A DNA stretch of 64,000 nt from Patescibacteria group bacterium (GTDB lineage: Bacteria; Patescibacteriota; Minisyncoccia; Phycocordibacterales; UBA9973): assembly GCA_028865035.1 (NCBI GenBank), contig JAGWLB010000001.1, positions 99,668-163,667 on the forward strand. The letters are read 5' to 3'. The position numbers and the translations under genes were made by a program. The notes under the pieces were generated by a model. It was not told the DNA's origin. It ran no database searches and saw nothing but the letters and a program-made list of their open reading frames with translations. Shown here piece by piece: positions 18,474 through 52,186 of the stretch (the first letter of the stretch is position 1; the number at the start of each line of letters is the position of its first letter).

Positions 18474-18483
18474 ATATAAACAT

Positions 18484-20424
18484 ATGTACGTAGTTAAAAG
18501 ATCTGTCCATAATCCAATACTTATACCTAATCGTGATCATTACTGGGAAGCGTTTGCGACTTTTAATATGTGTCCAATAAAAATTGGTAAAGTTACTTAC
18601 GGATTATATAGAGCAATTTCAGCTGTAGATCAAATGGCAATTCAGAAACAAATATCTACCATAGGTATAGGTAAGAGTCGTGATGGTATTCATTTTGAAG
18701 ATAGAGAGCCATTTATTGTTCCGGTTGAAGAATGGGAAGCTCATGGATGTGAAGACCCTCGTATTACATACTTCGAAGGAAAATATTACATATTTTATAC
18801 AGCCCTTTCGAGATATCCATTTGGACCAGAAGGAATAAAAGTTGCTGTTGCAGTCTCTAATGATTTAAAGAAAGTAAATGAACGTCATTTTGTGACACCT
18901 TTTAACGCAAAGGCTATGACATTGTTTCCAAAACGCATAAATGGCAAAATAACTGTCATTTTTTCAGCACATACAGATAGTCCTCCAGCTAAAATGTCTA
19001 TTGCTCAAGTAGACCATATGGAACAACTTTGGGATATAGATTTCTGGGAAGAATGGATAAAAAATATAGATGAACACACTATCAGTTTTCGTCGTACACA
19101 ATACGACCATCTAGAAGTTGGAGCACCACCAATACTTACTAAATATGGATGGTTACTTGTATATTCACATATACAAAATTATTTTCCATCACCAGAGAAA
19201 CTTGATCGTATTTTTGGTATTGAAGCGCTTCTGTTAGATAAAAATGATTTAACAAAAGTAATAGGTAGAACGAAAGGACCAATACTAGCACCGAACGAGC
19301 CATACGAGTTGTCTGGGTATGTGAATGATGTAGTATTCCCAACTGGAGCATTAGTGAATAAAGATATACTTACTATTTACTATGGAGCAGCTGATACTAC
19401 AACTTGTACTGCACACGTAAACTTAAATGATTTGATATTCAGTATGTGTCCAGATAAATTTCCAGATTTTCAATTTAAACGCTCAGCAAAAAATCCTATA
19501 ATCTCTCCCAAAAGTGAAAATGATTGGGAATCAAAAGCGACTTTCAATCCAGCCGCAATATATCTCGGAGGCAAAACACACATCTTATACAGAACTCTTT
19601 CTGGTGATAACACTTCATATATAGGTTATGCTTCAAGTAAAGATGGAATTAATTTAATTGAAAGATTAAATTCTCCTATATATGTACCACGCGAGGATTT
19701 TGAAAAGAAAAAAATTTCTGGAGGTAACTCAGGTTGTGAAGATCCAAGAATAACTCAAATAGGGAAAAATCTTTATATCTGTTACACCGCTTACGACAGT
19801 ATCGGCCCACCACACGTTGCTATCTCTTCTATAACAGTTAAAGATTTTTTAGCTCACAAATGGAACTGGACTAAACCAGCACTTGTGACGCCTCCTGCTT
19901 TTGATGATAAAGATACTTGTTTGTTTCCAGAGAAATTAAAAAATGGATACTTTATTCTACATCGTGTGGGGAATGATATTTGTGGTGATTATCTTAAATC
20001 ACTTGATTTTGAGAAGAATATGGTTCACAAATGCATTCGAGTTCTTGCTCCACGCTTAAATTCTTGGGACAGTGCTAAAGTTGGTATCACAGCTCCACCG
20101 ATAAAAACAAAATATGGTTGGTTGTTGCTTTATCATGGAGTATCAAAGAGTCACGGTACCTATCGTGTCGGAGCGGTACTTCTTGATCTGAAAGATCCAG
20201 GTATTATCCTTTCGCAAAGCACGGATCCTATTTTTGAACCGATTGAATCTTACGAGAAGGTTGGTATTGTTAATAATGTTGTATTTCCTTGCGGAATGGT
20301 CCGCAAAGGGGACTTGCTATATATATATTACGGCGGAGGAGATAAGGTTGTAGGTGTTGCTACGATGAAATTTTCAACAATTCTCTCTGCCCTTGTTCAC
20401 GGGAAACGTTTTAATGATAAATAA
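18484..20424 (+). CDS. Tandem-duplicated GH130 glycoside phosphorylase (two complete GH130 domains in one 646-aa protein)
   Basis: Domain 1: HNPILIPNRDHYWEAFATFN...GCEDPRITYFEGKYYIFYTA. Domain 2: KNPIISPKSENDWESKATFNPAAIYLGGKTHILYR...GCEDPRITQIGKNLYICYTA. Confidence 0.75.
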   Translation: MYVVKRSVHNPILIPNRDHYWEAFATFNMCPIKIGKVTYGLYRAISAVDQMAIQKQISTIGIGKSRDGIHFEDREPFIVPVEEWEAHGCEDPRITYFEGKYYIFYTALSRYPFGPEGIKVAVAVSNDLKKVNERHFVTPFNAKAMTLFPKRINGKITVIFSAHTDSPPAKMSIAQVDHMEQLWDIDFWEEWIKNIDEHTISFRRTQYDHLEVGAPPILTKYGWLLVYSHIQNYFPSPEKLDRIFGIEALLLDKNDLTKVIGRTKGPILAPNEPYELSGYVNDVVFPTGALVNKDILTIYYGAADTTTCTAHVNLNDLIFSMCPDKFPDFQFKRSAKNPIISPKSENDWESKATFNPAAIYLGGKTHILYRTLSGDNTSYIGYASSKDGINLIERLNSPIYVPREDFEKKKISGGNSGCEDPRITQIGKNLYICYTAYDSIGPPHVAISSITVKDFLAHKWNWTKPALVTPPAFDDKDTCLFPEKLKNGYFILHRVGNDICGDYLKSLDFEKNMVHKCIRVLAPRLNSWDSAKVGITAPPIKTKYGWLLLYHGVSKSHGTYRVGAVLLDLKDPGIILSQSTDPIFEPIESYEKVGIVNNVVFPCGMVRKGDLLYIYYGGGDKVVGVATMKFSTILSALVHGKRFNDK

Positions 20425-29395: not shown

Positions 29396-31153
29396 ATGCA
29401 TCTCGATGAGAAAAGTATCATAGATCTATTAAATAGTTCAGGGCTAGTCAGTAAAACTGATGTAGCTATGGCTCAAAAGAAAGCTAAAGAAAAAGGTCAA
29501 TCTATTGGCCTAGTTTTAGTTAGTGAAGGTAAGCTTACAGAAAAAGATTGGAACAGTATGCAAGCCGTTTCACTAGGTATTCCATTTGTTAGCTTGAAGG
29601 GTGAGAAGATTGATCCTAGTGTCCTATCTCTGATACCAGAACCGATTGCTCGTAACAGTAATATAATTGCTTATAAAAAAAGCAAAGCAGGCCTAGAAGT
29701 TGCGATGCTCGACGTAGATAATTTATCGGTTATAGATTTTATAAAGAAAAAAGTTGGGCTTAAGATTTTACCGCGCCTAACAAGCTCAGATTCAATAAAG
29801 GAAGCCTTAACACAATACAAGAAAAGTTTGCAAGCTGACTTTGAAGATATCATCAAAAAAGAAAGCGCTTCGATAAAAACTATTTTAAAAAATGATAACT
29901 CTAGTGAAGAAAAGTCAGAAAAAGAACTTAAAGAATTAGCAGAAGATTTACCAATAGTAAAGATAGTAGATACTCTTATCTCTCATGCCATTTCTCAAGG
30001 AGCATCTGATGTACATATAGAGCCTGAAGAGGATTCACTAATTGTTCGTTATCGCATTGATGGTATTTTGCACGATGCGATGGTTTTACCCAAAGACACT
30101 GCACCAGGAATAGTGGCTCGTATAAAAGTTTTGTCAAATCTAAAATTAGACGAAAAACGTCTCCCTCAAGACGGACGTTTCAAAATTGAAGGAGAAGACG
30201 GTAATGTATCATTTCGTGTTTCGACTCTGCCTACGTATTATGGAGAAAAAACAGTGATACGTATTTTAAGAGAAAACTCTAAAGGTTTTTCCCTAGAGAC
30301 TCTAGGCTTTCACGGTAATGCACTAGAACTTATACATGAAGGTATGAAGCAAAGAAGTGGTATGTTGCTTTGTGCGGGTCCTACGGGTTCGGGTAAAACT
30401 ACAACTTTGTATACAATGCTCGATATTTTAAATACTCCAGAAGTAAATATTTCCACTGTTGAAGACCCTATAGAATATCAAATGGCACGTATAAACCAAA
30501 CACAAACAAAAGCAGAAATAGGTTTAACTTTTGCAAATGGTTTGCGTACACTGCTTCGTCAAGATCCGGATATTATAATGGTAGGGGAGATTCGTGACGG
30601 GGAGACAGCTTCACTTGCAGTCAACGCTAGTCTTACTGGCCACTTAGTACTATCAACCATCCACACGAATTCCGCTGCTGGAGCTATTCCCCGTATGATA
30701 GATATGGGAGTCGAACCATTTTTAATTGTTTCTACAGTTAAAACCATTATTGCTCAGCGCTTAGTTAGAATTCTTGATGATAATAAGGAAAAATATTTCT
30801 TAGACGATGCTGAAAAAAAAGCTCTAGAAAAAGTTGCAAATCTCGATCTTGTTCTTGAAAGATTGAAAAGTGAAAAGATTGTTGATCCAAATGCTACTTG
30901 GAAAACTATACCATTATACAAACCTGTAACAAGTAAAGAATCAGAGAGTGGTTATAAAGGACGGTTAGGTATTCACGAAGTTTTAAAAGTTACACCGACT
31001 CTTAAAGATATGATTCTAAAAGGATCATCAACGGATGAGATTGAAGCCAGAGCAAAAGAAGAGGGTATGATGACAATGCTCGAAGATGGTATTTTCTTTG
31101 CCTGCAAGGGTTTGACTTCGACAGAAGAGGTTCTTCGTGTTGTTTCTGAATAA
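29396..31153 (+). CDS. pilB: Type IV pilus assembly ATPase PilB (GspE family)
   Basis: N-terminal GSPII_E_N-like domain; Walker A LLCAGPTGSGKTTTLY; GspE His box. Confidence 0.85.
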   Translation: MHLDEKSIIDLLNSSGLVSKTDVAMAQKKAKEKGQSIGLVLVSEGKLTEKDWNSMQAVSLGIPFVSLKGEKIDPSVLSLIPEPIARNSNIIAYKKSKAGLEVAMLDVDNLSVIDFIKKKVGLKILPRLTSSDSIKEALTQYKKSLQADFEDIIKKESASIKTILKNDNSSEEKSEKELKELAEDLPIVKIVDTLISHAISQGASDVHIEPEEDSLIVRYRIDGILHDAMVLPKDTAPGIVARIKVLSNLKLDEKRLPQDGRFKIEGEDGNVSFRVSTLPTYYGEKTVIRILRENSKGFSLETLGFHGNALELIHEGMKQRSGMLLCAGPTGSGKTTTLYTMLDILNTPEVNISTVEDPIEYQMARINQTQTKAEIGLTFANGLRTLLRQDPDIIMVGEIRDGETASLAVNASLTGHLVLSTIHTNSAAGAIPRMIDMGVEPFLIVSTVKTIIAQRLVRILDDNKEKYFLDDAEKKALEKVANLDLVLERLKSEKIVDPNATWKTIPLYKPVTSKESESGYKGRLGIHEVLKVTPTLKDMILKGSSTDEIEARAKEEGMMTMLEDGIFFACKGLTSTEEVLRVVSE

Positions 31154-31177: not shown

Positions 31178-32392
31178 ATGAAATTTAAATACAAAGTACA
31201 AAAAAATGGTGGCGGGGTTCTTGAAGGTTATAAAGAAGCCCCAGATAAGTTTTCACTAGCTCGTGATCTAAGAGAGCAAGGTGATACTCCTATATATATT
31301 GAGGAATCTGGAACTAAAGAAAAAACCTCCATTTTAAAAATGAATTTTTTTGGAAGGGTTTCACTCTCAGAGAAAATAATATTTACAAACAATTTGAGTG
31401 GAATGCTAACTGCAGGTTTGCCGCTCACAAGAGCATTGTTAGTTCTTCAAAAACAAAACAAAAATCAGACTTTTAATAAAATTCTGAATAGCCTTATAGA
31501 TGATATTAATAGTGGAAATACTCTATCAGATGGTATGAGTAAGTATCCGAAGGTATTCTCTAGTCTTTTTGTTTCTATGGTTCATGCAGGTGAAGAATCA
31601 GGAAGTTTACCAAAATCTTTATCAGAAGTCGGTCTTAATTTAAAGAAGGCATATGATTTGAGTAAAAAGGTTAAAAGTGCATTAATCTACCCAGTAATAA
31701 TTCTCTGCGCAATTATTTTGATTGGTGTTTTAATGATGATCTTCGTTGTCCCTACTCTTACTAAAACATTCAAAGATATGGGAGCTGATTTACCAGCTTC
31801 AACTAAATTCATTATTTGGTTGTCAGATACTGTTAGTAACCATACAATATTATTTTTATTATTCTTACTATCGATTGCTGCCGCTATCATTCTATTTGTA
31901 AAGTTACGGGCAACACAAAAATATCTTGATTATTTGATCTTACGAGTACCTGTTGTAAATAATATATCTAAGGAAGTGAATACCGCCCGCACCGCTCGCA
32001 CGTTATCCTCACTGCTATCATCAGGAGTAGATATGTCTAGAGCTTTGACCATCACAAAAGAAGTTGTGCAAAATATTTATTACAAAAAATTAATTTCACA
32101 AGCCATTACTTCCATAGAAAAAGGTAGCCCTCTGTCTGCTTCCTTTAAAGACAATACACAACTTTATCCTGTTATGATGGGAGAAATGATCGAAGTAGGC
32201 GAAGAAACAGGTAATCTATCTAAAATGTTATTAGATATCGCTAACTTCTATGAATCCGAAGTTGATAATAAAACAAAAGACTTATCGGTTATTATCGAGC
32301 CAGTCTTAATGCTTTTAATAGGCGGAGCCGTCGGATTTTTTGCTGTATCTATGATTTCCCCGATATACTCTGTGATGAGTAATATTAAATAG
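31178..32392 (+). CDS. pilC: Type IV pilus platform protein PilC (GspF family)
   Basis: Two T2SS-F repeats, 3 TM helices, ~400 aa, directly after pilB. Confidence 0.8.
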   Translation: MKFKYKVQKNGGGVLEGYKEAPDKFSLARDLREQGDTPIYIEESGTKEKTSILKMNFFGRVSLSEKIIFTNNLSGMLTAGLPLTRALLVLQKQNKNQTFNKILNSLIDDINSGNTLSDGMSKYPKVFSSLFVSMVHAGEESGSLPKSLSEVGLNLKKAYDLSKKVKSALIYPVIILCAIILIGVLMMIFVVPTLTKTFKDMGADLPASTKFIIWLSDTVSNHTILFLLFLLSIAAAIILFVKLRATQKYLDYLILRVPVVNNISKEVNTARTARTLSSLLSSGVDMSRALTITKEVVQNIYYKKLISQAITSIEKGSPLSASFKDNTQLYPVMMGEMIEVGEETGNLSKMLLDIANFYESEVDNKTKDLSVIIEPVLMLLIGGAVGFFAVSMISPIYSVMSNIK

Positions 32393-41669: not shown

Positions 41670-42962
41670 ATGAGTAAAAAGGAAATTAGTATAATAATTT
41701 TATTGATAATTATTGCACTCGTGAGATTTTTCTTTTTCTTACCGAAAGCTCCACCTTACGCAAGTGCAGTAGGGAAAAATATAATTTTTGAGGGCATAGT
41801 TGTTGATCCTCCAGATGTGCGTTTGAATAATCAGAGGCTTACAGTTGAACCCAAAAATCAAAAAGCGAATGTTTTAGTTGTAGTTCCCCGAACAGAAGAA
41901 GTGTCGTATGGAGATAAAATACAAGTCAGTGGAATATTAGAAACGCCAGAAAATTTCACCACCTCCACCGGTAAAGAATTTAATTATATGAGATATCTAG
42001 CAAATCAAGATATCTACTTTACTGTAAAAAATGCACAGATTAAAATAATATCTCATAATAATGGAAACAAGCTGAAAGCTATATTATTTAAGTTACGGGA
42101 TTTGTTCACAAATAATATTAATAATGTTATAGACCCCCCAGAAAGTGATCTGGCTTTAGGGTTAGTCATAGGTGCTCGCGGAGGTTTTGATTCTGGTATA
42201 AAGAATGAATTTATCAGCACAGGTACGATTCATATTGTTGCATTGTCTGGATATAACGTGACTGTTGTCGCAGAAGGTGTTATGAAAGTTTTCGGTTTGA
42301 TTCTTGCCCAGACATTTTCAATTATTTTTGGGATACTAATTATTTTTTTGTTTATTATAATGGCCGGCTCTTCTTCTACAGCAATCAGGGCGGGGGTTAT
42401 GGCTACTATTGCACTATTTGCTCGTATGACTGGTCGTACATATTCTGCTGGTAGAGCTCTTGTGATCGCAGGGTTGATAATGGTTGCATACGATCCTCGT
42501 GTACTCTCCGATATATCTTTTCAGTTATCTTTTATAGCAACCTTTGGTGTATTATTCTTAACACCGAAAGTTATGATTTGGGTTAGATTTTTACCACTGC
42601 GTTTTGGTTTGCGTGAGCTTGTGGCCACAACTCTCGGAGCCACTATCGCTGTGCTTCCTATTCTTCTTTATGTTACCGGAGTTCTTTCTATCGTGTCACT
42701 GCCAGCAAATATTTTAATTTTACCTTTTATACCGCTAACAATGTTAATGATTTTTATTACTGGTGTGATTGGATTTATCTCCCCAACATTCTCTTTACCA
42801 TTTGCTTATCTATCACATTTATTACTTGCATATATTTTATCGGTTATTCACTTCTTTGCTTCACTATCATTTGCTAGTGTAACTATTACATCATTCCCAT
42901 TAATTATCACTATTATCATATATATCACTATGGTCTGGTGGTTATTACGCAAAAAAGAATAA
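41670..42962 (+). CDS. comEC: ComEC/Rec2 N-terminal part: DUF4131 OB-fold plus the competence membrane-channel domain
   Basis: OB region GKNIIFEGIVVD...; IHIVALSGYNVTVV competence-domain motif; polytopic. Confidence 0.7.
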   Translation: MSKKEISIIILLIIIALVRFFFFLPKAPPYASAVGKNIIFEGIVVDPPDVRLNNQRLTVEPKNQKANVLVVVPRTEEVSYGDKIQVSGILETPENFTTSTGKEFNYMRYLANQDIYFTVKNAQIKIISHNNGNKLKAILFKLRDLFTNNINNVIDPPESDLALGLVIGARGGFDSGIKNEFISTGTIHIVALSGYNVTVVAEGVMKVFGLILAQTFSIIFGILIIFLFIIMAGSSSTAIRAGVMATIALFARMTGRTYSAGRALVIAGLIMVAYDPRVLSDISFQLSFIATFGVLFLTPKVMIWVRFLPLRFGLRELVATTLGATIAVLPILLYVTGVLSIVSLPANILILPFIPLTMLMIFITGVIGFISPTFSLPFAYLSHLLLAYILSVIHFFASLSFASVTITSFPLIITIIIYITMVWWLLRKKE

Positions 42963-42965
42963 AAA

Positions 42966-43000
42966 TAATCCTAGATATATATCTAGGATTATTTTTATTT
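42966..43000. terminator. Bidirectional terminator: perfect 14-bp palindrome AATAATCCTAGATAT/ATATCTAGGATTATT
   Basis: Between convergent comEC and sodA; flanked by A and T runs. Confidence 0.65.
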
Positions 43001-43011
43001 AATCTTAATAA

Positions 43012-43611
43012 TTATTGAGCTTTTTTAAAATTATCTTCTATAACTTCCCAGTTCAGATTCGCAAAGAATGCTTCAATATATTTTTTCTTTTCACTTGTTG
43101 AATAATCATATACAAATGCATGTTCCCACATATCTAAAGCCAATATCATTTCACATCCATTTAATTGACCTAAATGTTGTTCATCTACCCAAGAGGTAAG
43201 AAGCATATTGTCTTTTCTGTCGTACCAAAGTACGGCCCATCCGATACCACGAGTCGCAGCCAAAGTTTTAAAATTAGAAAGAAAATCATCGAAAGAACCA
43301 AAAGTTTTCTCTATGGCAGATTTTAAATCTCCGTCCGAAATAGGAGTTGCTTTTCCTTCTAGCGAAGAGAAATAAATCTCATGGTTTCGCATACCGTTAT
43401 ATTCAAAAGAGAAACGACGACCAAGCTCACTTACGACATACGGTGCAAAAATATCTTCTTTTTCATAACCTCGATATTCAGGTATTTTTTCTAAAATAGA
43501 ATTTGCGTTTTTCACATAGCCTGCATATAGCTTCAAATGTTCCTCAATGTTTTTTGCGCTAATACCAGCTAATTCTGGAATGTTAAATGTTTTAGGTGTA
43601 AATTTATCCAT
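43012..43611 (-). CDS. sodA: Fe/Mn superoxide dismutase
   Basis: HHxKHH-type N-domain; ALDMWEHAFVYDY metal-ligand motif. Confidence 0.85.
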   Translation of the reverse strand: MDKFTPKTFNIPELAGISAKNIEEHLKLYAGYVKNANSILEKIPEYRGYEKEDIFAPYVVSELGRRFSFEYNGMRNHEIYFSSLEGKATPISDGDLKSAIEKTFGSFDDFLSNFKTLAATRGIGWAVLWYDRKDNMLLTSWVDEQHLGQLNGCEMILALDMWEHAFVYDYSTSEKKKYIEAFFANLNWEVIEDNFKKAQ

Positions 43612-43650
43612 ATTATTTTATTGCTTAAATGCTAATATGTATATTATAGC

Positions 43651-44520
43651 ATGAAAAATTTTCGTAGATATTTACCCTATATTTTATTTATATTTCTGAT
43701 AATTTTTCTGTCACTTATCTGGTATGTTGTATATCTAAAAGATACTCACAGTAATATATTAAAAGTTGCCTATTTAGATGTTGGTCAAGGAGATGCTATC
43801 TACATAGAAGCACCTAATGGTAGGCAGATGCTTATCGATGGTGGTCCTGGAGCGTCTGTCTTGTCGAGCCTAGGACAAGTTATGCCTTTTGCTGATCGAT
43901 CTATCGACTTAGTTCTCGCTACTCATACCGACGCTGATCATATCGGAGGTTTTCCTTTTGTTCTAGATAAGTACAAAGTAGGGCATATTATCGAGAATGG
44001 TGCTTCATCAGATACTCGGACATTTAGAGATCTTGAGAGTAGAGTAAATAAATATAAAATTGATAAAATTATTGCTACTAGAGGTACTCGCATAATACTA
44101 GATAAAAATCTAAATATTTATTTTGATATTTTATTTCCAGACAGAGATATTTCTAATTTTGAATCAAACGATGGATCCATAGTAGGACGATTAGTTTATG
44201 GTAATGAATCTTTTATGTTTACAGGTGATGCTACAAAATACACTGAACATCTAATTATGACAAATGAAAATTCTTCTACTCTTCACTCGCAAGTTTTAAA
44301 GCTTGGTCATCATGGTTCACGATATTCATCTAGTGAGCTTTGGCTTCTAAGTGTTCACCCAGATGTAGCTATTATTTCTGCTGGCCTCAACAATCGCTAC
44401 GGTCACCCTCATCAGGAAGTTCTTGATTTACTAAAGAAGCTTTCTATCCCATACTTAACGACTTATCAAAAAGGAACAATCATTTTTAAAACTGATGGAG
44501 TAACTTTGACCCATAACTAA
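43651..44520 (+). CDS. ComEC-type metallo-beta-lactamase-fold nuclease domain protein with an N-terminal TM anchor (the separated C-terminal part of ComEC)
   Basis: VAYLDVGQGDAIYIEAPNGRQMLIDGGPG; HTDADHIGG; GHHGS. Confidence 0.7.
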   Translation: MKNFRRYLPYILFIFLIIFLSLIWYVVYLKDTHSNILKVAYLDVGQGDAIYIEAPNGRQMLIDGGPGASVLSSLGQVMPFADRSIDLVLATHTDADHIGGFPFVLDKYKVGHIIENGASSDTRTFRDLESRVNKYKIDKIIATRGTRIILDKNLNIYFDILFPDRDISNFESNDGSIVGRLVYGNESFMFTGDATKYTEHLIMTNENSSTLHSQVLKLGHHGSRYSSSELWLLSVHPDVAIISAGLNNRYGHPHQEVLDLLKKLSIPYLTTYQKGTIIFKTDGVTLTHN

Positions 44521-44633: not shown

Positions 44634-44879
44634 TTATTTAATTATTCCAGCTTTCTTTAGTACTGCGTACGCACCGTTTTTGTTAATAGTTTTTATGGCA
44701 GTAGTAGATAGCGTAAGAGGGAAGTACTTTTTAAGCTCTGGTACGTATATACGTTTCTTTTGAAGGTTGGGATATTTACGAACCATACCAGTAGGGTTGA
44801 ATTTGGTAGCACGAACAACGTTGGAGTAGCCTCCAGCCATCTTTGAACCTTTTTTAGTTATTGCACAAACTTTTGCCAT
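44634..44879 (-). CDS. rpmB: 50S ribosomal protein L28
   Basis: MAKVCAITKKGSKMAGGYSNVVRATKFNPTGMVRKYPNLQKKRIYV parallels L28 MSRVCQVTGKRP..GNN.SHA.N.TKRRF.PNL; internal ATG chosen over the longer ORF. Confidence 0.8.
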   Translation of the reverse strand: MAKVCAITKKGSKMAGGYSNVVRATKFNPTGMVRKYPNLQKKRIYVPELKKYFPLTLSTTAIKTINKNGAYAVLKKAGIIK

Positions 44880-44906
44880 AGATGGGATTATGCTATCATA
44901 TAAAAC

Positions 44907-45557
44907 ATGCCTATGCAAGCTGTCGATGGAATATTCTATGTAATTATACTTATAATGTCGGTAATCATCCATGAATTTGCTCATGGTTATGTAGCGTATC
45001 TTTTAGGTGATGACACTGCTCGTCTTGAAGGAAGACTTACTCTAAACCCTCTAAAACATCTAGATCCATTCGGTTCAGTTGTTTTACCTTTACTTCTAAT
45101 ATTGATGCAAGCAGGTTTTGTTGTCGGATGGGCTCGCCCTGTGCCTTACAATCCGAATAATCTTAGAAATAGGAAAAGAGGAACTCTGATGGTTGCTTTT
45201 GCGGGTATTCTCGCCAATATTTTTATTGCTATTTTATTTGGTTTATTTATTAGGTTTGCGCCGTATTTTGGTTTGCCACCATACACTTCTAATCCATTAT
45301 TAATGGATCCTTTTTATAAAATAGCTAGTATTATTGTTCTCCTTAATCTTGTTTTGGCTTTGTTTAATCTTATCCCCATTCCACCATTAGATGGATCAAA
45401 AATATTATTCTCATTTATGCCGTATAAATTCCGTAAAATTGAAAATTTTTTAGAACGATGGGGAATGTTTATTTTACTTTTCTTCATTATCTTTCTTTGG
45501 AGTCAGGTTTCACCGATTATTTACGGAGCTTTCTCTTTAATTACAGGTATACATTAA
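44907..45557 (+). CDS. Site-2 protease family (M50) membrane metalloprotease
   Basis: HEFAHG HExxH in a TM helix; downstream NLIPIPPLDGSK. Confidence 0.75.
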   Translation: MPMQAVDGIFYVIILIMSVIIHEFAHGYVAYLLGDDTARLEGRLTLNPLKHLDPFGSVVLPLLLILMQAGFVVGWARPVPYNPNNLRNRKRGTLMVAFAGILANIFIAILFGLFIRFAPYFGLPPYTSNPLLMDPFYKIASIIVLLNLVLALFNLIPIPPLDGSKILFSFMPYKFRKIENFLERWGMFILLFFIIFLWSQVSPIIYGAFSLITGIH

Positions 45558-45616: not shown

Positions 45617-48600
45617 ATGAGTGAAAAAAAATATTTCTTCAGATTTTTCAAATTATCTCACCTGGTAATAGTATCAGTGTTGTTGCTCGTATTATCTGTC
45701 GGTATTTACACTAAAGCTTATGCCATTGCCTCACCATATAATCCAGGAGATACCTTAGATCCTGCTTGTGCACCAGGGGATGTAAACTGTATTGTGCAGA
45801 TAGTTCCTTCACCGTGGACTACTGTTGCTGGTGGTATTAGTTACACTGGAGGAAACGTAAATATTAATTCTGGTTCTGCCTATCAATATGGTGGAGTAAA
45901 TGTTATCACTGCACAGACAAGTAAAAATAATTATTTCTTTGGTAATGCTGGAAATTTGACTGGAACTGGCATTAAAAATACGGCTGTGGGGGCTGGGGCA
46001 CTTTCGTCAACTACGACAAGTGCATGGAATACTGCAGTGGGGTATGACGCTCTACAGCTCAATACAACAGGGAACAGTGATGTCGCTTTCGGATACTGCG
46101 CTCTTTTAAATAATACGACTGGTTATTTCAACGCCGCGCTGGGAACATGTGCACTTCTTCACAATACAACTGGGTACGATAATACTGCTACTGGTTTTGA
46201 TTCGCTTTATTACAATACCACTGGTTATGCTAATACTTCTACTGGCTCAGTAGCTCTTTATGGTAATACTACTGGTAATAATAATGTGGCTATGGGATAT
46301 TACTCTCTTTTTAAAAATACTACCGGGTCAAATAACACAGCCATAGGAATGCAATCTCTTTATGACCTAAATATTATTGCTAATGATGGTTCTGGTAACA
46401 ACACTGCTATCGGTTACAATACCGGTCGTGGTATCACAACCGGTATCAACAACACCATCATCGGTGCCAATGTCACTGGTCTTGCGACAGGACTTTCAAA
46501 CAATATCATCATCGCCGATGGAGCAGGGAATCAGAGAATTAATATTGATAACACAGGATTATTAAAACTCGGTACTTATGGTGTAGGTACTCACACTGGT
46601 ACCGCAGCTTATACATTACAGGTTGATGCAAGCGGTAATGTGATTGAAGGACCTGCAGTTTTTTCTCCGTGGACTACTGTTGCTGGTGGTATTAGTTACA
46701 CCGGAGGAAACGTAAATATTAATTCTGGTTCTGCGTATCAATATGGCGGGGTAAATGTTATTACTGCTCAGACAGCTAGTAATAATTATTTCTTTGGTAA
46801 TGCCGGGAATTTGACGGGGACGGGTGTTAAGAATACAGCAGTAGGAGGTAGTGCTTTGATTGCTACCACTACTGGAGGTTATAATACTGCTCTAGGAGAG
46901 GAAGCTTTAAAAGTTAATGATGCTGGTGCACAAAACACTGCAGTAGGTACTTATTCTTTAACCGCTAATACTTCTGGTTCATATAATACTGGACTTGGAG
47001 TAACTACTTTATCTAGAAATACGACAGGAAAGGATAATTTAGCTGTTGGGCACAGCGCCCAGTATTACAATACTACTGGTAATTATAATACTGCTATTGG
47101 TATGTATGCTTTGCATAACAATACTACAGGTTCATATAATACTGCTATTGGTATGCAAGCCCTATATGATATTAATAGCATTACGGCCAATGATTCCGGC
47201 AACAACACCGCTCTCGGTTACAACACCGGTCGTGGTATCACTACTGGTATCAACAACACTATCATCGGTGCCAATGTCACTGGTCTTGCGCCAGGACTTT
47301 CAAACAACATCATTATTGCCGATGGAGCAGGGAATCAGAGAATTAATATTGATAACACAGGATTATTAAAACTTGGTACTTATGGTGTTGGTACTCATAC
47401 TGGTACTGCAGCTAAAACCCTCCAAGTAGATGCAAGTGGAAATGTGATAGAGGGAGCTTCACTTATTGGTTCTACTTCAACAGGCACAGGCACTGAAACA
47501 TGGCTCGGTACAAGTGCTGCGGGGTTGGGAACGGCGTCGACAGATCATACAGTTTTTATTGGTGTTGATACAGGAACAAATTCAACTTTTGGAAATCATT
47601 CAAATTTTATAGGATCAAGTGCTGGTTATAATGCAACAAATGCCACTAATTCTAATTTCGTAGGATTCAATGCTGGTGGTTATGCTACTAATGCTAACCA
47701 ATCAACTTTTTTTGGCGAAAATGCCGGAAGTTCTGCTTCTAATGCCGCATATTCTATTTTTATTGGAATGAATTCTGGTAAAAATGACACTGTTAATAAC
47801 ACTGCTACATTTGACAATACAACCACTTTTGCTAACACATCTATACTACTAGGTTACAACACTTCCACCGGTGGTTTCTCCAACTCTATAGCTATTGGTG
47901 CTTATGCCACTAACACTGCCACTAATCAATTTATGATTGGTTCAGCAAATCGTCCAATAGATAGTACCCGTATCAACGGTACCGGAGGTACACAATGTAC
48001 TATCACTACAGGTACAGGTATAGCTTGTACATCCGATGAAAGATTAAAAACAAACATTGTCGATCTATCAGATGATACACTCGCTAAACTTGCTGGAGTT
48101 CGTACTGTAACTTTCAACTGGTTAGCTACTCCTAATGTTAACCCCCAAATAGGTTTCATCGCTCAAAACCTAGAACCAATCTTCCCAGAACTAGTAGCTA
48201 CAGATTCAAATGGATACAAGTCAGTCTACTACTCTCACATAACCCCAATTCTTGTTAAAGCCATCCAAGAGATGAATCTAAAAGTTGATAAGTTATCATC
48301 ATTAGATATTTCGCAATCCAATTCACTCGGTTCACTTATTACAAGCTTCTTAGGTTCTGTTGGTAATGGTATAAAAGATTTGTATGCGAGTGTAGTGCAT
48401 ACCAACAAACTTTGTATTAATAAATCTGATGGTAATGAAGTTTGTCTTACTGGAGATCAATTACAACAATTAATGGTCAACCAAAGTTCTCCTCAGAATT
48501 TCTCTACAGTAATATACGTACCTACTACACCTACTACCACCACTACTGCACCTACAACACCTACAGATACTAAGAATACCGATACAACTTCTACTCCTAC

Positions 48601-48946
48601 TCCTACAAATACAAGTAGTACCACTTCAACCACTCCAACCACCACCACAACAACTTCTACTTCTTCAACCACATCAACCTCAGACACAACTACACCATCT
48701 ACCAATACCACCACCACAACACCTACAGATATTAAGAATACCGATACAACTCCTACTCCTACAAATACAAGTAGTACCACTTCAACTACACCTACCACCA
48801 CAACAACTTCTACTTCTTCAACCACACCAACTCCTACCACTACTACACCCGCACCTACAACACCTACAACAACAGCAACATCAACCCCAACTCCTAGCAC
48901 TACACCCACACCTACAACAACAGATACCCCAACACCGGTAAATTAA
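45617..48946 (+). CDS. 1109-aa trimeric-fibre-like surface protein: signal/anchor, YadA-head-like 16-residue NTA(V/I)G...NTTG repeats (two ~280-aa copies), peptidase-S74 intramolecular chaperone domain, Thr/Pro-rich repeat tail
   Basis: S74-like SDERLKTNIVDLSDDTLAKLAGVRTVTFNW...PQIGFIAQNLEPIFPELV...YKSVYYSHITPILVKAIQE; duplicated PWTTVAGGISYTGGNVNINSGSAYQYGGVNVITAQT. Confidence 0.65.
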   Translation: MSEKKYFFRFFKLSHLVIVSVLLLVLSVGIYTKAYAIASPYNPGDTLDPACAPGDVNCIVQIVPSPWTTVAGGISYTGGNVNINSGSAYQYGGVNVITAQTSKNNYFFGNAGNLTGTGIKNTAVGAGALSSTTTSAWNTAVGYDALQLNTTGNSDVAFGYCALLNNTTGYFNAALGTCALLHNTTGYDNTATGFDSLYYNTTGYANTSTGSVALYGNTTGNNNVAMGYYSLFKNTTGSNNTAIGMQSLYDLNIIANDGSGNNTAIGYNTGRGITTGINNTIIGANVTGLATGLSNNIIIADGAGNQRINIDNTGLLKLGTYGVGTHTGTAAYTLQVDASGNVIEGPAVFSPWTTVAGGISYTGGNVNINSGSAYQYGGVNVITAQTASNNYFFGNAGNLTGTGVKNTAVGGSALIATTTGGYNTALGEEALKVNDAGAQNTAVGTYSLTANTSGSYNTGLGVTTLSRNTTGKDNLAVGHSAQYYNTTGNYNTAIGMYALHNNTTGSYNTAIGMQALYDINSITANDSGNNTALGYNTGRGITTGINNTIIGANVTGLAPGLSNNIIIADGAGNQRINIDNTGLLKLGTYGVGTHTGTAAKTLQVDASGNVIEGASLIGSTSTGTGTETWLGTSAAGLGTASTDHTVFIGVDTGTNSTFGNHSNFIGSSAGYNATNATNSNFVGFNAGGYATNANQSTFFGENAGSSASNAAYSIFIGMNSGKNDTVNNTATFDNTTTFANTSILLGYNTSTGGFSNSIAIGAYATNTATNQFMIGSANRPIDSTRINGTGGTQCTITTGTGIACTSDERLKTNIVDLSDDTLAKLAGVRTVTFNWLATPNVNPQIGFIAQNLEPIFPELVATDSNGYKSVYYSHITPILVKAIQEMNLKVDKLSSLDISQSNSLGSLITSFLGSVGNGIKDLYASVVHTNKLCINKSDGNEVCLTGDQLQQLMVNQSSPQNFSTVIYVPTTPTTTTTAPTTPTDTKNTDTTSTPTPTNTSSTTSTTPTTTTTTSTSSTTSTSDTTTPSTNTTTTTPTDIKNTDTTPTPTNTSSTTSTTPTTTTTSTSSTTPTPTTTTPAPTTPTTTATSTPTPSTTPTPTTTDTPTPVN
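45806..46650 (+). repeat. Intragenic ~0.8-kb duplication, copy 1 (about 90% identity to copy 2)
   Basis: Shared blocks such as CCGTGGACTACTGTTGCTGGTGGTATTAGTTACAC...; offset about 855 bp. Confidence 0.75.
46661..47455 (+). repeat. Intragenic ~0.8-kb duplication, copy 2
   Basis: See copy 1. Confidence 0.75.
48500..48940 (+). repeat. Tandem Thr/Pro-rich coding repeats (PTTPTDTKNTDTT(S)TPTPTNTSSTTSTTPTTTTT units) forming the C-terminal tail of the fibre protein
   Basis: A ~150-bp unit repeated with variation; it also creates a spurious poly-Val ORF on the minus strand. Confidence 0.7.
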
Positions 48947-48955
48947 TTTATCTAA

Positions 48956-51900
48956 ATGAAAATTACAATTAAAAGATTTATAAAATATATCTTATTAATA
49001 ATATTATTTAGTATAGCTTTCCAAGCTAATGCTTCTATTATTAATGGAAGTATCAGTACTTCACATTACACGGCTCAAGTTTGCGAGACAGCTTCGTGTG
49101 CTGTGTCTACTACATCTCCAGTAAATTTTGGTAATTTCTCAACTACTCCAGCGTCTGATGTTGTCGTAACAGATACTGCACTGAAAGGATATATTTGGGG
49201 AGAATCATTTGGCTGGGCTGTACTTAACTGTATCAACACTGCAAGTGGGTGCACCTCTACGAACAATAATTTTAAAGTTGCCAACGATAGCAACGGACAT
49301 CTCTCTGGTTATGCTTGGGGACAGAATGCTGGATGGATTAACTTTGGACCTTTTGTAAACAGTACAACTTCCCCTGTAGTTATAAATAGTTCTGGACAGT
49401 TTAACGGTTATGCTTGGAGTCAGAATTATGGTTGGATAAAATTCGATTGTTCTAATCCAAGTTATTGTGTTCAGACTGATTGGCGTCCACAAAATACTAG
49501 ACCTCAGTGTAGTGATGGTATAGATAATGATAACGATGGCCTCATTGATAGTGCTGACCCTGGTTGTCATACGGATCTTAATGCAAACAACTCTAGTTCA
49601 TATGATCCGACTCTCAACAGTGAATATAATCGAACAGGTGGTGGAGGTTTTCCAAGTGGCGGCGGTAATGATATGTGTCCCAATATTGCTGGAGTACAAT
49701 CTACTGTTCCTGATGGTAAAATCTTAGATGCATCAGGACAGTGTGTAGATAATATATGTCCCAACACTGTAAACTATAACTCTGTACCACTATCTTCTTC
49801 TGGGCCGTTTACTGTAAATGTAAAAAATACAACGAAAATCGGTTTTGCTATTAAAGTATTTGATACGATAAATCCTGCTCATACAGAAGGGGATATTGCT
49901 ACAGAAAATGCCTTAAATAAAAATTCAAGTGATCAGGTTGTTGTTTACGATACTTCATTGAACAAATATGTTTTAGGTTTTGAAGATGTTGTCGGTGGAG
50001 ATTACGATTATAATGATCTTGTCGTTGGTGTTGGTTTATCTTGCGATCCTCTCTCGGGTAACACTTGCCCTAACCCTTCTTCTCTTTCAGATACAACTTC
50101 AGAAATTATAAATCACGCGCCGTCAGGTGAACTAGACCTCCAAACAATTTTAAATAATGCAGGATATAACATAAATACAATACTTGATCAGAAGCAATAT
50201 CAAGTATGGGACATTCCACAAAATACTACTGTTACCGTCAGCACAAAATTCATAAATAAATTTGCTGGCAATAGTTTTGTCTTTGGTTATTATACGAATG
50301 GCTCACTAGCAAATTTTGTTCCAATATTTAAAACTGCGAATATAGCAGGGTCTACTACAGTTCCTACTATGTGTACTCCTAATCCTAGTGATTATTGTCC
50401 AAATATTAATGGAGTACAGACTTCGCTTCCACCTGGTATGGCTTTAAACACCACAGGTCAATGTGTATATATAGTACCAGATGTATGTTCAAACATTCCT
50501 GGATCACAGCTTACAGTACCAGATGGTTATGGTTATAACTCTTTAGGTCAGTGTGTTCCTGTGGCGGCGATAGATCAATGTCCAAATATTGTAGGAAATC
50601 AGATGACAGTTCCAAGTGGTATGTCATTAAATACACAAGGGCAATGTGTCTCTTTATCTGTACCTGATGCGTGTCCGAATATACCAGGGTCTCAGTCTTC
50701 TATCCCAACAGGGGATATGTATGATTCATCTGGTAATTGTGTACCTCATACTACTATTGATCTATGCTCAAATATTGCAGGAAATCAGACAACGATTCCA
50801 AGTGGTATGGTTGTGAATACTGGAGGACAGTGTGTGCCACCAGCAGTACCCGACGCCTGTCCAAATATTGATGGAACACAGTTAAGAATACCTAGTGATA
50901 TGACTTATGATACACAAGGTAATTGCGTACCATTAATGAAGATAGATGCTTGTCCAAATATTGCTGGAACACAAACTACTTTACCTAAAGGAATGTCTTA
51001 TGACTCTCAAGGTAATTGTGTTGCTAGTCTTTGTCTTACAAATCCGAAACTTTGTGCTCCTCCAGCTGATGCTTGTTCTGTTGATCCAGCTTCGTGTGTT
51101 TCTCCGGCTAGTTTCTGTACTACTCACCCCGAGCTATGTGTTCCACCACCTACTTGCAAAGGATTGCAATGCCTTTCTCCTGGTTATATAAAAAGCATAA
51201 TTAATAATCTGACTATGCTTACTCCTATTCCTTTTGCTAAAAGAGCTAGTTCTATTATGATTACTGCTGGTATTATTTCAGGTATAGCTCTGAGTTTAGT
51301 TACATCTGTATTTACAACGCCAACTTCATTATCCGATATTTTTAATCTCCCTGTCCGTCTTTGGAGTTTGTTATTATCAGCACTTGGATTTAAAAAACGC
51401 AGAAGACCTTGGGGAACTGTATATGATAGTGTCACCAAAGAACCTCTTGATCCAGCATATGTTGCACTTTTAGATTTACAAGGTAAGGAAGTAGCTACTT
51501 CTATAACGGATATTGATGGTAGATATGGATTCTTAGCCCCAGCTGGTCAGTACAGAATGGTAGCTCACAAGACTAATTATTTATTCCCATCAGATAAGAT
51601 GAAAGATAAAAGCAGTGATGAGTTATATGAAGATTTGTATTTTGGAGATATTATTAACGTGAATGAAGACGAAGGAGTAATTATCAAAAATATTCCTATG
51701 GATGCAATTAATTTTGACTGGAATGAATTTGCAAAACAAGACCAAAGATTAATGAAGTTCTACTCAAGGCGCGACATCTGGATTGTTCGTATTTCAAGCG
51801 CTCTTTTCTATTTTGGACTTTTGCTTACCATCATTGCAGTTGTAGGATTACCAAATGTTTACAATATAGCGACTCTAGTTGCTTATATGGTATTGCTGGT

Positions 51901-52186
51901 GTTTAAGAATGTAACCATCAGTCCTAGTTCCCTTGGTACTGTAGTTTTCAGTGAGAACGGTAATCCTGTGTCATTTGCTATTATGAGAATATTCAGAGCA
52001 GATGATAATTATGAAGTTGCACATAAGATTGTAAATAAAACTGGTAAGTACTACTGTATTGTGCCAAATGGAACATATTATGTTGAAATTGAAAAGAAAA
52101 ATCTAGATGCTACTTATAGCCTAATCTATACATCTGGTCCTATTATTGTTAAAAAGGGTCATATAAATAATAAGTTTAAAGTATAA
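48956..52186 (+). CDS. 1076-aa surface protein: signal peptide, Ca-binding-like DGIDNDNDGLID motif, DUF4114-like segment, nine ~40-aa CPNI(A/P)G(x)Q..P.G...GQCV repeats, Cys-rich stalk, TM segments, and a C-terminal carboxypeptidase-regulatory-like beta domain
   Basis: VVVYDTSLNKYVLGFEDVVGGDYDYNDLVVGV (DUF4114-like); repeats visible 49676-51000; GRYGFLAPAGQYRMVAHKTNYLFP. Confidence 0.5.
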   Translation: MKITIKRFIKYILLIILFSIAFQANASIINGSISTSHYTAQVCETASCAVSTTSPVNFGNFSTTPASDVVVTDTALKGYIWGESFGWAVLNCINTASGCTSTNNNFKVANDSNGHLSGYAWGQNAGWINFGPFVNSTTSPVVINSSGQFNGYAWSQNYGWIKFDCSNPSYCVQTDWRPQNTRPQCSDGIDNDNDGLIDSADPGCHTDLNANNSSSYDPTLNSEYNRTGGGGFPSGGGNDMCPNIAGVQSTVPDGKILDASGQCVDNICPNTVNYNSVPLSSSGPFTVNVKNTTKIGFAIKVFDTINPAHTEGDIATENALNKNSSDQVVVYDTSLNKYVLGFEDVVGGDYDYNDLVVGVGLSCDPLSGNTCPNPSSLSDTTSEIINHAPSGELDLQTILNNAGYNINTILDQKQYQVWDIPQNTTVTVSTKFINKFAGNSFVFGYYTNGSLANFVPIFKTANIAGSTTVPTMCTPNPSDYCPNINGVQTSLPPGMALNTTGQCVYIVPDVCSNIPGSQLTVPDGYGYNSLGQCVPVAAIDQCPNIVGNQMTVPSGMSLNTQGQCVSLSVPDACPNIPGSQSSIPTGDMYDSSGNCVPHTTIDLCSNIAGNQTTIPSGMVVNTGGQCVPPAVPDACPNIDGTQLRIPSDMTYDTQGNCVPLMKIDACPNIAGTQTTLPKGMSYDSQGNCVASLCLTNPKLCAPPADACSVDPASCVSPASFCTTHPELCVPPPTCKGLQCLSPGYIKSIINNLTMLTPIPFAKRASSIMITAGIISGIALSLVTSVFTTPTSLSDIFNLPVRLWSLLLSALGFKKRRRPWGTVYDSVTKEPLDPAYVALLDLQGKEVATSITDIDGRYGFLAPAGQYRMVAHKTNYLFPSDKMKDKSSDELYEDLYFGDIINVNEDEGVIIKNIPMDAINFDWNEFAKQDQRLMKFYSRRDIWIVRISSALFYFGLLLTIIAVVGLPNVYNIATLVAYMVLLVFKNVTISPSSLGTVVFSENGNPVSFAIMRIFRADDNYEVAHKIVNKTGKYYCIVPNGTYYVEIEKKNLDATYSLIYTSGPIIVKKGHINNKFKV

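What the first reader, a model, noticed from the sequence alone, without database searches (positions are those of the whole stretch)
45617..48946. Giant trimeric-fibre adhesin: YadA-head-like repeats plus a phage-type S74 intramolecular chaperone domain plus a TP-rich tail
The 16-residue NTA(V/I)GxxAL..NTTG.. periodicity matches left-handed beta-roll head repeats of trimeric adhesins. A ~0.8-kb segment is duplicated in tandem at about 90% identity. The C-terminal SDERLKTNI...PQIGFIAQNLEPIFPELV...ILVKAIQE block is the peptidase S74 (endosialidase chaperone) auto-cleaving trimerisation domain typical of phage tail fibres. After it comes a 140-aa Thr/Pro-rich tandem-repeat tail that would remain only if cleavage does not occur. 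For a putative episymbiont this is a prime host-attachment candidate, and the recent duplication suggests rapid evolution.
Basis: partly seen in the sequence, partly recalled or inferred. Interest (0 to 1): 0.55.

Follow-up and report, generated by a model that had tools for sequence, protein, structure and literature searches.

The report
Phage-like self-cleaving cell-surface fibre
A gene in a small Patescibacteria (CPR) genome encodes a secreted, probably three-chain surface fibre built like a phage tail fibre, with a folding domain that should cut itself off; it is a reasonable host-attachment candidate but belongs to a very large, already recognised family.

Summary
The ORF at 45617-48946 (1109 aa) is real. 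Its C-terminal block is a Peptidase_S74 intramolecular chaperone domain (Pfam E=3e-15). The Ser806/Lys811 dyad (SDERLK) is invariant in 13 aligned relatives, and the fold matches MyRF, GA-1 and endoNF chaperone domains.

Two numbers in the finding are wrong. The repeat period is 17 residues, not 16. The tandem duplication is 72-73% identical overall, not about 90%; only the module ends reach 90-98%, and the core is saturated at synonymous sites.

The gene is chromosomal, lying between an M50 protease gene and rpsL. A syntenic Paceibacteria genome keeps the flanking genes at 57-94% identity but the fibre at 33%.

The Thr/Pro tail belongs to a post-chaperone extension (helix, disulfide hairpin, disordered tail) seen here only in Patescibacteria loci and found in more than 1100 sequence clusters.

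The closest characterised analogues are the Bdellovibrio MAT fibres. Verdict: a new member of a known kind. Cleavage, trimer formation and adhesion are inferred, not shown.

The parts
45617..45724 (+). Probable Sec signal peptide (aa 1-36): basic n-region, the protein's only hydrophobic segment, and an AYA|IA site
   Evidence: A Kyte-Doolittle scan finds one hydrophobic segment only, at about aa 10-35. Relatives carry xFA|(V/I) at the same position. No signal-peptide predictor was available, so cleavage versus a retained membrane anchor is inferred.
45725..45808 (+). Conserved N-terminal Cys-loop 'handle' (aa 37-64, YNPGDTLDPACAPGDVNC)
   Evidence: The motif [YF]xPGxT[LI]xPxCxP recurs right after the signal peptide in Patescibacteria fibres whose central regions differ. 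It is present in 30 of 80 full-length representatives that carry the C-terminal extension.
45809..46651 (+). Fibre module 1 (aa 65-345), with eight 17-aa NTAxGxxALxxNTTGxx repeats at nt 45977-46384
   Evidence: PHROG tail-spike and virion-structural families hit at E about 1e-38.
46664..47455 (+). Fibre module 2 (aa 350-613), a tandem copy of module 1 with seven 17-aa repeats at nt 46832-47188
47456..48031 (+). Distal shaft and tip (aa 614-805): about five 17-aa NSNFxGxxAGxxATNAx repeats (nt 47546-47800), then the tip with Cys794/Cys804 just before the cleavage site
   Evidence: Best relatives are P0001/P0003 and L001/L002, which differ from those of modules 1 and 2. PDB 8jov, 'putative tail fiber protein', aligns to aa 748-894 at E=8e-8.
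48032..48301 (+). Peptidase_S74 intramolecular chaperone domain (aa 806-895). Ser806 codon is 48032-48034 and Lys811 codon is 48047-48049. Predicted self-cleavage is at Ser806.
   Evidence: PF13884 E=3e-15. S, D and K are invariant in 13 aligned sequences. Foldseek gives MyRF ICA 7dc3 at E=3.5e-4, followed by GA-1 3gud and endoNF 3gw6.
48302..48511 (+). Post-chaperone extension (aa 896-965): amphipathic helix, Cys933-Cys943 beta-hairpin and a short helix
   Evidence: AF2 pLDDT is about 77-79 over the hairpin and helix. Both Cys are invariant. The profile finds 2357 sequence clusters at E<=1e-3 and 1131 at E<=1e-10. In the genome loci it occurs only in Patescibacteria-labelled or unlabelled MAGs.
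48512..48943 (+). Thr/Pro-rich low-complexity tail (aa 966-1109) with two ~54-aa units
   Evidence: Among locus ORFs a 38-132 aa low-complexity tail follows the Cys hairpin in every case. Among 145 cluster representatives the median is 73 aa and 4 tails are shorter than 20 aa. Fibres with S74 only end 1-14 aa after the chaperone helix.
48956..52186 (+). Possible partner gene: a 1076-aa membrane and surface protein starting 9 nt after the fibre stop
   Evidence: Pfam finds CarboxypepD_reg and DUF4114. It has hydrophobic segments, Trp repeats and eight C[PS]NIxGxQ repeats. A homologue lies directly downstream of the S74 fibre in L004, L014, L023 and L025. A functional link is inferred only.

Best explanation
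The gene encodes a Sec-exported cell-surface fibre of a Patescibacteria (Paceibacteria-like) bacterium, built on the plan of a phage tail fibre.

Proposed steps:
- Export through the N-terminal signal sequence (inferred).
- The C-terminal S74 domains of three chains associate and nucleate folding of the upstream beta-structure into a homotrimer (inferred from the family).
- Ser806, activated by Lys811, cleaves the chain. This releases a 304-aa fragment made of chaperone, disulfide hairpin and Thr/Pro tail, and exposes the tip at about aa 761-805 (inferred from the intact, invariant dyad).
- The mature fibre (about aa 37-805) has two tandem beta-roll modules of 17-residue turns and a distal shaft. 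It stays on the cell through the conserved N-terminal Cys-loop handle or an uncleaved signal anchor, possibly with the adjacent membrane protein (speculative).

The most likely role is adhesion to a partner or host cell, or to its surface glycans. This follows from analogy with the Bdellovibrio MAT fibres and phage receptor-binding fibres.

The gene is mosaic and evolves fast within a conserved chromosomal slot.
For: - S74 domain above Pfam threshold. The SDxxxK dyad is invariant in 13 sequences. The fold matches solved ICA/CIMCD structures, and PDB tail fibre 8jov aligns across the cleavage site.
- The repeats hit PHROG tail-spike and virion-protein families at E about 1e-38, 259 phage records and 43 viral predicted structures, including phage and giant-virus S74 proteins.
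- The module model has one strand per 17 aa and resembles autotransporter heads and left-handed beta-helices.
- There is a single N-terminal hydrophobic segment, and all 8 Cys fall in four local pairs, which fits an extracellular protein.
- The setting is chromosomal and housekeeping: RecJ, ComEC, SOD, L28 and M50, then the fibre, then rpsL-rpsG-fusA. It is syntenic with L004, where flanking genes are 57-94% identical and the fibre 33%.
- Different segments have different best relatives, so the protein is mosaic.
- A profile of the module family hits Bdellovibrio MAT fibre Bd2133 (8OND) at E=2.6e-7.
- Self-cleavage at the SDxxxK serine and a role in prey handling are shown experimentally for cellular MAT fibres (PMC10769870).
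Against: - Nothing here shows expression, export, trimer formation, cleavage or binding.
- Both AF2 models are monomers of moderate confidence (mean pLDDT 59.7 and 60.1). No multimer prediction could be run.
- How the mature fibre is held on the cell is unknown.
- The conserved hairpin and tail downstream of the cleavage site have no role in this model beyond leaving with the chaperone. That may mean the model is incomplete.
- The adhesin and host-recognition role rests on analogy alone.
- The window protein's own inter-module motif is a divergent version of the MAT capping-loop consensus.
Confidence: 0.75

Rival explanations
1. It is a tail-fibre gene of a prophage, tailocin or other phage-derived particle, not a cellular surface protein.
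For: The strongest named similarities are to phage proteins: PHROGs, 259 phage records, BFVD and PDB 8jov.
Against: No phage genes flank it. Its neighbours are housekeeping genes in an order shared with L004. It has an N-terminal export signal and paired cysteines; from general knowledge, cytoplasmically assembled phage fibres do not. No paralogue or phage-like cluster was seen in the 64-kb window.
Confidence: 0.05
2. It is a classical type Vc trimeric autotransporter adhesin of the YadA/Hia class.
For: JGI labels several homologues 'trimeric autotransporter adhesin'. The module model resembles YadA-like heads.
Against: There is no YadA_anchor, Hep_Hag or YadA_head hit at E<=1. The C-terminus is an S74 domain plus a disordered tail, not a beta-barrel. 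From general knowledge, Patescibacteria lack an outer membrane to hold such an anchor.
Confidence: 0.01
3. The S74 domain folds the trimer but does not release the C-terminal part, or the fragment stays bound. The disulfide hairpin and Thr/Pro tail would then act as a wall-spanning stalk that tethers the fibre by its C-terminus, with the N-terminus distal.
For: The hairpin and low-complexity tail are conserved in more than 1100 clusters, which suggests a function beyond being discarded. From general knowledge, Pro/Thr-rich stretches are typical wall-spanning spacers in monoderm surface proteins. MyRF shows that an ICA domain can be followed by a retained anchoring region.
Against: The Ser/Asp/Lys motif is invariant, as expected for active cleavage. 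There is no C-terminal membrane segment or sortase signal. The tail varies widely in sequence and composition between relatives, as a spacer without specific contacts would.
Confidence: 0.12
4. The fibre is not an adhesin. It could be an enzymatic tailspike-like depolymerase, or a structural envelope or matrix component.
Against: No catalytic domain is detected by Pfam or NCBIfam. The repeat modules match adhesin heads with the highest sequence identity, 19-29%, against 7-12% for enzymes and tailspikes.
Confidence: 0.1

Closest known systems
Bdellovibrio bacteriovorus MAT (mosaic adhesive trimer) fibres, S74 subgroup, e.g. Bd3182 (PMC10769870)
   Same: Both are cellular rather than phage proteins of about 1000 aa. 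Both have a signal peptide, a conserved N-terminal element, a beta-helical mosaic shaft and a C-terminal S74 domain with an SDxxxK motif. The family profile of the window's module hits MAT fibre Bd2133 (8OND) at E=2.6e-7 through the GNvGIGTxxPxxKLxV inter-module motif. The organism in both cases lives on other bacteria.
   Different: The N-terminal element here is a 28-aa Cys-loop motif, not the ~130-aa beta-rich MAT domain; homology between them was not tested. The shaft is made of 17-aa beta-roll repeats. The S74 domain is followed by a helix, a disulfide hairpin and a 144-aa Thr/Pro tail. From general knowledge, the host organism is a monoderm CPR bacterium. No experimental data exist for this protein.
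Phage tail fibres and tailspikes with a C-terminal intramolecular chaperone domain (K1F endosialidase endoNF 3GW6, GA-1 neck appendage 3GUD, T5 pb1; Pfam PF13884, MEROPS S74)
   Same: They share the S74 HMM match, the Ser-Lys dyad with 5-residue spacing and the fold. The 17-aa repeat head itself occurs in Pelagibacter, Roseobacter and cyanophage fibres at 34-40% identity.
   Different: This protein is chromosomal, has an export signal and paired cysteines, and has no virion genes nearby. It also carries the extra post-chaperone extension. Phage-type and Bacteroidota-type relatives end 1-14 aa after the chaperone helix.
Trimeric autotransporter adhesin heads (YadA 1P9H, UspA1 3PR7, BpaC 7O23, EibD 2XQH, CbpF 9GH4, BoaA 3S6L)
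   Different: The repeat is 17 residues (from general knowledge, YadA's is 14). There is no Hep_Hag or YadA_head HMM hit and no membrane anchor barrel. Trimerisation would be driven by a removable S74 chaperone instead.
Eukaryotic MyRF ICA domain (7DC3)
   Same: It is the best structural match to the chaperone region (E=3.5e-4). It is also an S74-type domain that is not at the extreme C-terminus.
   Different: From general knowledge, a membrane anchor follows the domain in MyRF and cleavage frees a transcription factor. Here only a small disulfide hairpin and a disordered tail follow.

Membership tests
Peptidase_S74 / C-terminal intramolecular chaperone domain (PF13884) | HMM match above the curated threshold | tested here: met
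   56.7 bits against a cut-off of 22, E=3e-15, aa 806-860, covering profile positions 1-57 of 58.
Peptidase_S74 / C-terminal intramolecular chaperone domain (PF13884) | Catalytic Ser-Lys dyad in an SDxxxK motif at the start of the domain | tested here: met
   S806-D-E-R-L-K811. S, D and K are invariant in the 13-sequence alignment A1. The same motif is defined for MAT fibres in PMC10769870.
Peptidase_S74 / C-terminal intramolecular chaperone domain (PF13884) | Fold of solved ICA/CIMCD structures | tested here: met
   Foldseek gives 7dc3 at E=3.5e-4, then 3gud and 3gw6. The model is of moderate confidence only (pLDDT 59.7 overall, 66-78 over the domain).
Peptidase_S74 / C-terminal intramolecular chaperone domain (PF13884) | Trimerisation-dependent autoproteolysis and release of the domain | not testable with these tools
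   This needs a multimer prediction and biochemistry with the wild type and an S806A mutant.
Trimeric autotransporter adhesins (type Vc) | C-terminal YadA-type membrane anchor beta-barrel (PF03895) | tested here: not met
   No Pfam hit at E<=1. The C-terminus is an S74 domain plus a low-complexity tail, with no hydrophobic or beta-barrel region.
Trimeric autotransporter adhesins (type Vc) | Hep_Hag / YadA_head repeat HMMs | tested here: not met
   No hit at E<=1. The family profile A2 finds no autotransporter head in PDB sequences at E<=1.
Trimeric autotransporter adhesins (type Vc) | Left-handed parallel beta-roll head fold | tested here: inconclusive
Bdellovibrio-type MAT fibres (S74 subgroup) | Signal peptide followed by a conserved N-terminal surface-proximal domain | tested here: inconclusive
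   Signal-like segment and AxA site. The N-terminal motif is conserved among Patescibacteria fibres. Its homology to the ~130-aa MAT domain was not tested because no MAT N-terminal sequence was at hand.
Bdellovibrio-type MAT fibres (S74 subgroup) | Beta-helical shaft with the capping-loop / inter-module motif | tested here: inconclusive
   Family profile A2 hits Bd2133 (8OND) at E=2.6e-7. The window's own copies (…LGTYGVGTHTGTAAYTLQV…) are divergent, and the window protein alone does not hit 8OND.
Bdellovibrio-type MAT fibres (S74 subgroup) | Mosaic make-up: conserved ends with exchangeable shaft and tip segments | tested here: met
   Best relatives differ by segment. The syntenic counterpart carries different modules and a different tip.
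Prophage / tailocin tail fibre | Location within a cluster of phage structural genes | tested here: not met
   Neighbours are RecJ, ComEC, SOD, L28, M50, rpsL, rpsG and fusA. The same order is found in L004.

The most novel reading that the evidence does not exclude
Patescibacteria may carry their own large family of S74 fibres, with more than 1100 sequence clusters. It would be defined by an N-terminal Cys-loop handle and a post-chaperone module (helix, disulfide hairpin, disordered Pro/Thr/acidic tail) that phage and Bacteroidota relatives lack. These fibres would sit in fast-turnover chromosomal slots, sometimes paired with a large membrane protein, and act as the host-range determinants of these episymbionts. 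The conserved extension would then have a function of its own, for example holding the nascent trimer at the envelope or controlling when the tip is exposed.
Probability: 0.25. Interest if true: 0.6.

Novelty: new member of a known kind. Interest (0 to 1): 0.4.

Why it matters
How CPR/Patescibacteria episymbionts recognise and hold on to their hosts is largely unknown; type IV pili are the only well-supported factor so far. This locus provides a concrete, testable candidate: a phage-style receptor-binding fibre that is exported, mosaic and far more divergent than its neighbours. It has a clear biochemical read-out, self-cleavage at Ser806. The lineage-specific C-terminal extension is a small open question about how S74 chaperones work in exported proteins. 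The protein family and its working principle are already known, so the advance is incremental.

Tried and rejected
- Exact look-up of the protein in the assembly collection found nothing on record.
- NCBIfam gave nothing meaningful.
- A word-index homology search with the post-S74 extension alone found no candidates and wasted one search. It was replaced by a profile search of the representative library.
- Strain-level comparison of repeat or module copy number was not possible. Neither the genome nor the metagenome collection holds a near-identical fibre; the best were 49% and 55% over part of the protein.
- The promoter and terminator scan gave counts at or below the shuffle expectation and was uninformative. 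No terminator-like site lies between the fibre and the next gene.
- 'Recent duplication' was rejected. Synonymous divergence is saturated in the repeat core and about 0.45 in the flanks, with short near-identical blocks. This fits an old duplication with local gene conversion, or a swap of the core cassette.
- The antisense 138-aa ORF at 48493-48909 was rejected as a mirror image of the Thr/Pro codons.
- A diversity-generating retroelement was considered as the cause of the variable repeat core. It was not pursued because the variable region is not a C-terminal lectin-type target. The window was not screened for a reverse transcriptase: Pfam was run on about 20 of its roughly 60 ORFs of 120 aa or more.
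- The first C-terminal model gave only non-significant hits for its beta-solenoid part (E 0.4-3), so the head question was settled with a separate module model.
Full report
**1. What is in the sequence**

- A single ORF runs from 45617 to 48946 on the + strand and encodes 1109 aa. It is the largest ORF in the window.
- The window has about 34% G+C. The fibre region is slightly richer, and it has a strongly negative GC skew over the Thr/Pro-coding 3' end.
- The protein is 19% Thr, 12% Gly and 11% Asn.
- It has one hydrophobic segment, at about aa 10-35. A basic stretch precedes it and AYA|IA follows it.
- All eight cysteines fall in four local pairs: 51/58, 161/178, 794/804 and 933/943. I read this as a Sec signal and an extracellular, disulfide-bonded protein. 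That is an inference, since no signal-peptide predictor was available.

**2. Repeats and the duplication**

  - Residue autocorrelation is 0.43-0.52 at lag 17 and 0.04-0.12 at lag 16. The maximum over 1000 shuffles was 0.19-0.22.
  - TRF reports period 51 twice.
  - In register, module 1 has eight NTAxGxxALxxNTTGxx turns (aa 121-256) and module 2 has seven (aa 406-524).
  - A second repeat type, NSNFxGxxAGxxATNAx, runs for about five turns at aa 644-728.
- The tandem duplication is aa 65-345 against aa 350-613 (nt 45809-46651 and 46664-47455).
  - Overall identity is 72% at protein level and 73% at DNA level, with one 17-aa repeat missing from copy 2.
  - Identity is mosaic. The first ~60 nt and a ~180-nt stretch near the end of the module are 90-98% identical, while the repeat core is 37-70% identical.
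  - Nei-Gojobori estimates give dS 0.43-0.46 and dN 0.04 in the flanks, with sub-blocks at pS 0.07-0.19. In the core dS is saturated at about 2.8 and dN is 0.43.
  - So this is not a recent 90% duplication. It is an old one with local homogenisation, or a replacement of the core cassette.

**3. The S74 domain**

- Pfam gives one hit only: PF13884 Peptidase_S74, E=3e-15, aa 806-860.
- The domain begins S806-D-E-R-L-K811. In an alignment with 12 relatives, Ser, Asp and Lys are invariant. This is the SDxxxK motif described for phage and Bdellovibrio S74 proteins (PMC10769870).
- A solved tail fibre, 8jov, aligns across the site at E=8e-8.
- An AF2 monomer model of aa 600-965 has modest confidence (pLDDT 59.7). 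Its best PDB matches are still the MyRF ICA domain (E=3.5e-4), the GA-1 chaperone and the endoNF chaperone.
Cleavage itself remains inferred.

**4. The head repeats**

- No Hep_Hag or YadA_head HMM hits at E<=1.
- A profile of 21 module sequences finds no autotransporter head in the PDB. It does find Bdellovibrio MAT fibre Bd2133 (8OND, E=2.6e-7), through the inter-module motif GNvGIGTxxPxxKLxV.
- At sequence level the repeats belong with phage proteins:
  - PHROG tail-spike and virion-structural families at E about 1e-38.
  - 259 phage records at 34-40% identity, including Pelagibacter, Roseobacter and Prochlorococcus phage tail fibres.
- An AF2 model of module 2 (pLDDT 60.1, pTM 0.64) places one short strand every 17 residues.
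- Against predicted viral structures there are 43 hits at E<=1e-3. They include phage 'intramolecular chaperone auto-processing' proteins, giant-virus S74 proteins and one phage protein labelled 'YadA-like head'.
- 'YadA-head-like' therefore holds as a fold-level resemblance of moderate confidence. It is not family membership, and the protein is not an autotransporter because it has no anchor barrel.

**5. Genomic setting**

- The neighbours are housekeeping genes. Upstream are RecJ, ComEC (split in two), Fe/Mn SOD, L28 and an M50 protease. Downstream are a 1076-aa membrane and surface protein, then rpsL, rpsG, fusA and a P-type ATPase.
- The window also holds PilM, PilB and PilC, an Ig-domain surface protein, two GH130 genes and a ribonucleotide reductase.
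- The window is not itself in the searched collections.
- One locus, L004 (Ca. Paceibacteria MAG JBBQGX01), is syntenic. Identities are RecJ 69%, ComEC 64%, SOD 57%, MBL 65%, L28 84%, M50 73%, S12 94%, S7 90% and EF-G 88%.
- Its 975-aa fibre in the same slot is only 33% identical. It has different modules and a different tip.
- This argues against a prophage origin. It also shows that the fibre, and the gene after it, turn over much faster than their surroundings.
- Segment by segment the window's fibre has different best relatives. They are the N-terminus (P0029/P0117), module flanks (P0004/P0053, up to 84%), tip and S74 (P0001/P0003, 62-76%) and extension (P0005/P0064). It is therefore a mosaic.

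**6. The part after the chaperone**

- The Thr/Pro tail is 144 aa, 56% Thr and 16% Pro, with two ~54-aa units. It is not an oddity of this gene.
- Between the S74 helix and the tail lie an amphipathic helix, a hairpin closed by two invariant cysteines (933/943) and a short helix.
- In the fetched loci, 42 ORFs (some of them duplicate sequences) carry this extension, and each continues into a 38-132 aa low-complexity tail rich in P, T, S, E, D or V. Most fibres without the extension stop 1-14 aa after the S74 helix.
- In the genome collection the extension was found in 16 loci. Fifteen are labelled as Patescibacteria lineages and one as 'uncultured bacterium'. It was found in none of the 11 Bacteroidota loci. 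Some of those loci may not include the fibre's end.
- A profile of the extension finds 2357 clusters at E<=1e-3 and 1131 at E<=1e-10 among 1.84 billion representatives.
- Of the top 145, 109 of the 114 with enough upstream sequence have an S..K motif upstream. The tail after the hairpin has a median of 73 aa and a range of 8-184 aa.
- The window's tail is near the long end of these samples, and no other tail shown is as Thr-rich.
- Its function is unknown. Under the cleavage model it leaves with the chaperone.

**7. Mechanism**

- Shown by computation: S74 membership, the intact dyad, repeat geometry, mosaicism and chromosomal synteny.
- Inferred from established knowledge of S74 proteins (Schulz et al. 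2010, as cited in PMC10769870, and the Bd3182 S782A experiment in that paper): trimerisation nucleated at the C-terminus, self-cleavage at the serine, release of the chaperone and exposure of the tip.
- Inferred by analogy: surface display through the conserved N-terminal handle, and binding to a partner cell.
- Speculative: a link to the downstream membrane protein. A homologue follows the fibre in four other distinct Paceibacteria loci.

**8. Comparison and novelty**

- More than 7000 homologues scored E<=1e-5. Sources name them 'tail fiber domain-containing protein' or 'trimeric autotransporter adhesin'.
- Cellular S74 fibres have been characterised in Bdellovibrio (PMC10769870).
- I found no paper in the held library dealing with S74 fibres in Patescibacteria.
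- I therefore rate this a new member of a known kind. The lineage-specific C-terminal extension and N-terminal handle are a possible variant worth a closer look.

**9. What did not work**

See the 'tried and rejected' field. In particular, repeat copy number among strains could not be compared, because no near-identical sequence exists in the collections. No multimer prediction was available.

Noticed in passing
window 48956-52186 (+): A 1076-aa protein starts 9 nt after the fibre stop. It has an N-terminal hydrophobic segment, three Trp repeats (GYxWGxxxGWIxF), DUF4114 and eight C[PS]NIxGxQ Cys repeats, seven of them at ~31-aa spacing. It also has hydrophobic segments at about aa 764-787 and 941-990, and a CarboxypepD_reg domain. 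A homologue lies directly downstream of S74 fibres in L004, L014, L023 and L025; in L004 it is cut down to 348 aa. It may be a partner or anchor of the fibre.
   Followed up: partly
window 48493-48909 (-): A 138-aa Gly/Val-rich antisense ORF mirrors the Thr/Pro codons of the fibre tail. It is an artefact of low-complexity sequence, not a gene.
   Followed up: yes
window 141-1541, 29396-31153, 31178-32392: Type IV pilus machinery genes (PilM, PilB/T2SSE, PilC/T2SSF) lie in the same window. Pili are the one established attachment device of cultivated Patescibacteria, so this genome has both candidate systems.
   Followed up: no
window 25491-28196 (+): A second large surface protein (901 aa) has Bact_surface_Ig-like, Big_3 and HYR domains and a squalene-hopene-cyclase-like C-terminal repeat region.
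   Followed up: no
window 41670-44520: ComEC is split. DUF4131 plus the Competence domain (41670-42962) and the metallo-beta-lactamase part (43651-44520) are separate ORFs, with a superoxide dismutase gene on the opposite strand between them. The same arrangement is present in L004.
   Followed up: partly
window 46097-46150 (aa 161 and 178): Two cysteines occupy the same position in consecutive 17-aa repeats of module 1 only, so they would stack on neighbouring turns of the beta-roll and could form a disulfide. Module 2 has no equivalent.
   Followed up: no
P0001, P0003, P0022, P0079; L015 8001-12488: Some Patescibacteria S74 fibres carry a different post-chaperone Cys module (GIxMKDxxTGExYCVxIxNGExxKxKGxC) in place of the KLCx(5-10)CxTxxQL hairpin. 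A low-complexity tail follows it as well.
   Followed up: partly
window 17280-20424: Two tandem GH130 (beta-1,4-mannooligosaccharide phosphorylase family) genes; the second has an N-terminal extension of about 350 aa.
   Followed up: no
window 44634-44984 (-) vs 44907-45557 (+): The mechanical L28 ORF overlaps the start of the M50 protease ORF. The L004 alignment begins at residue 23, and an internal MAKVCAITKKG start is likely, so the overlap is probably an ORF-calling artefact.
   Followed up: partly
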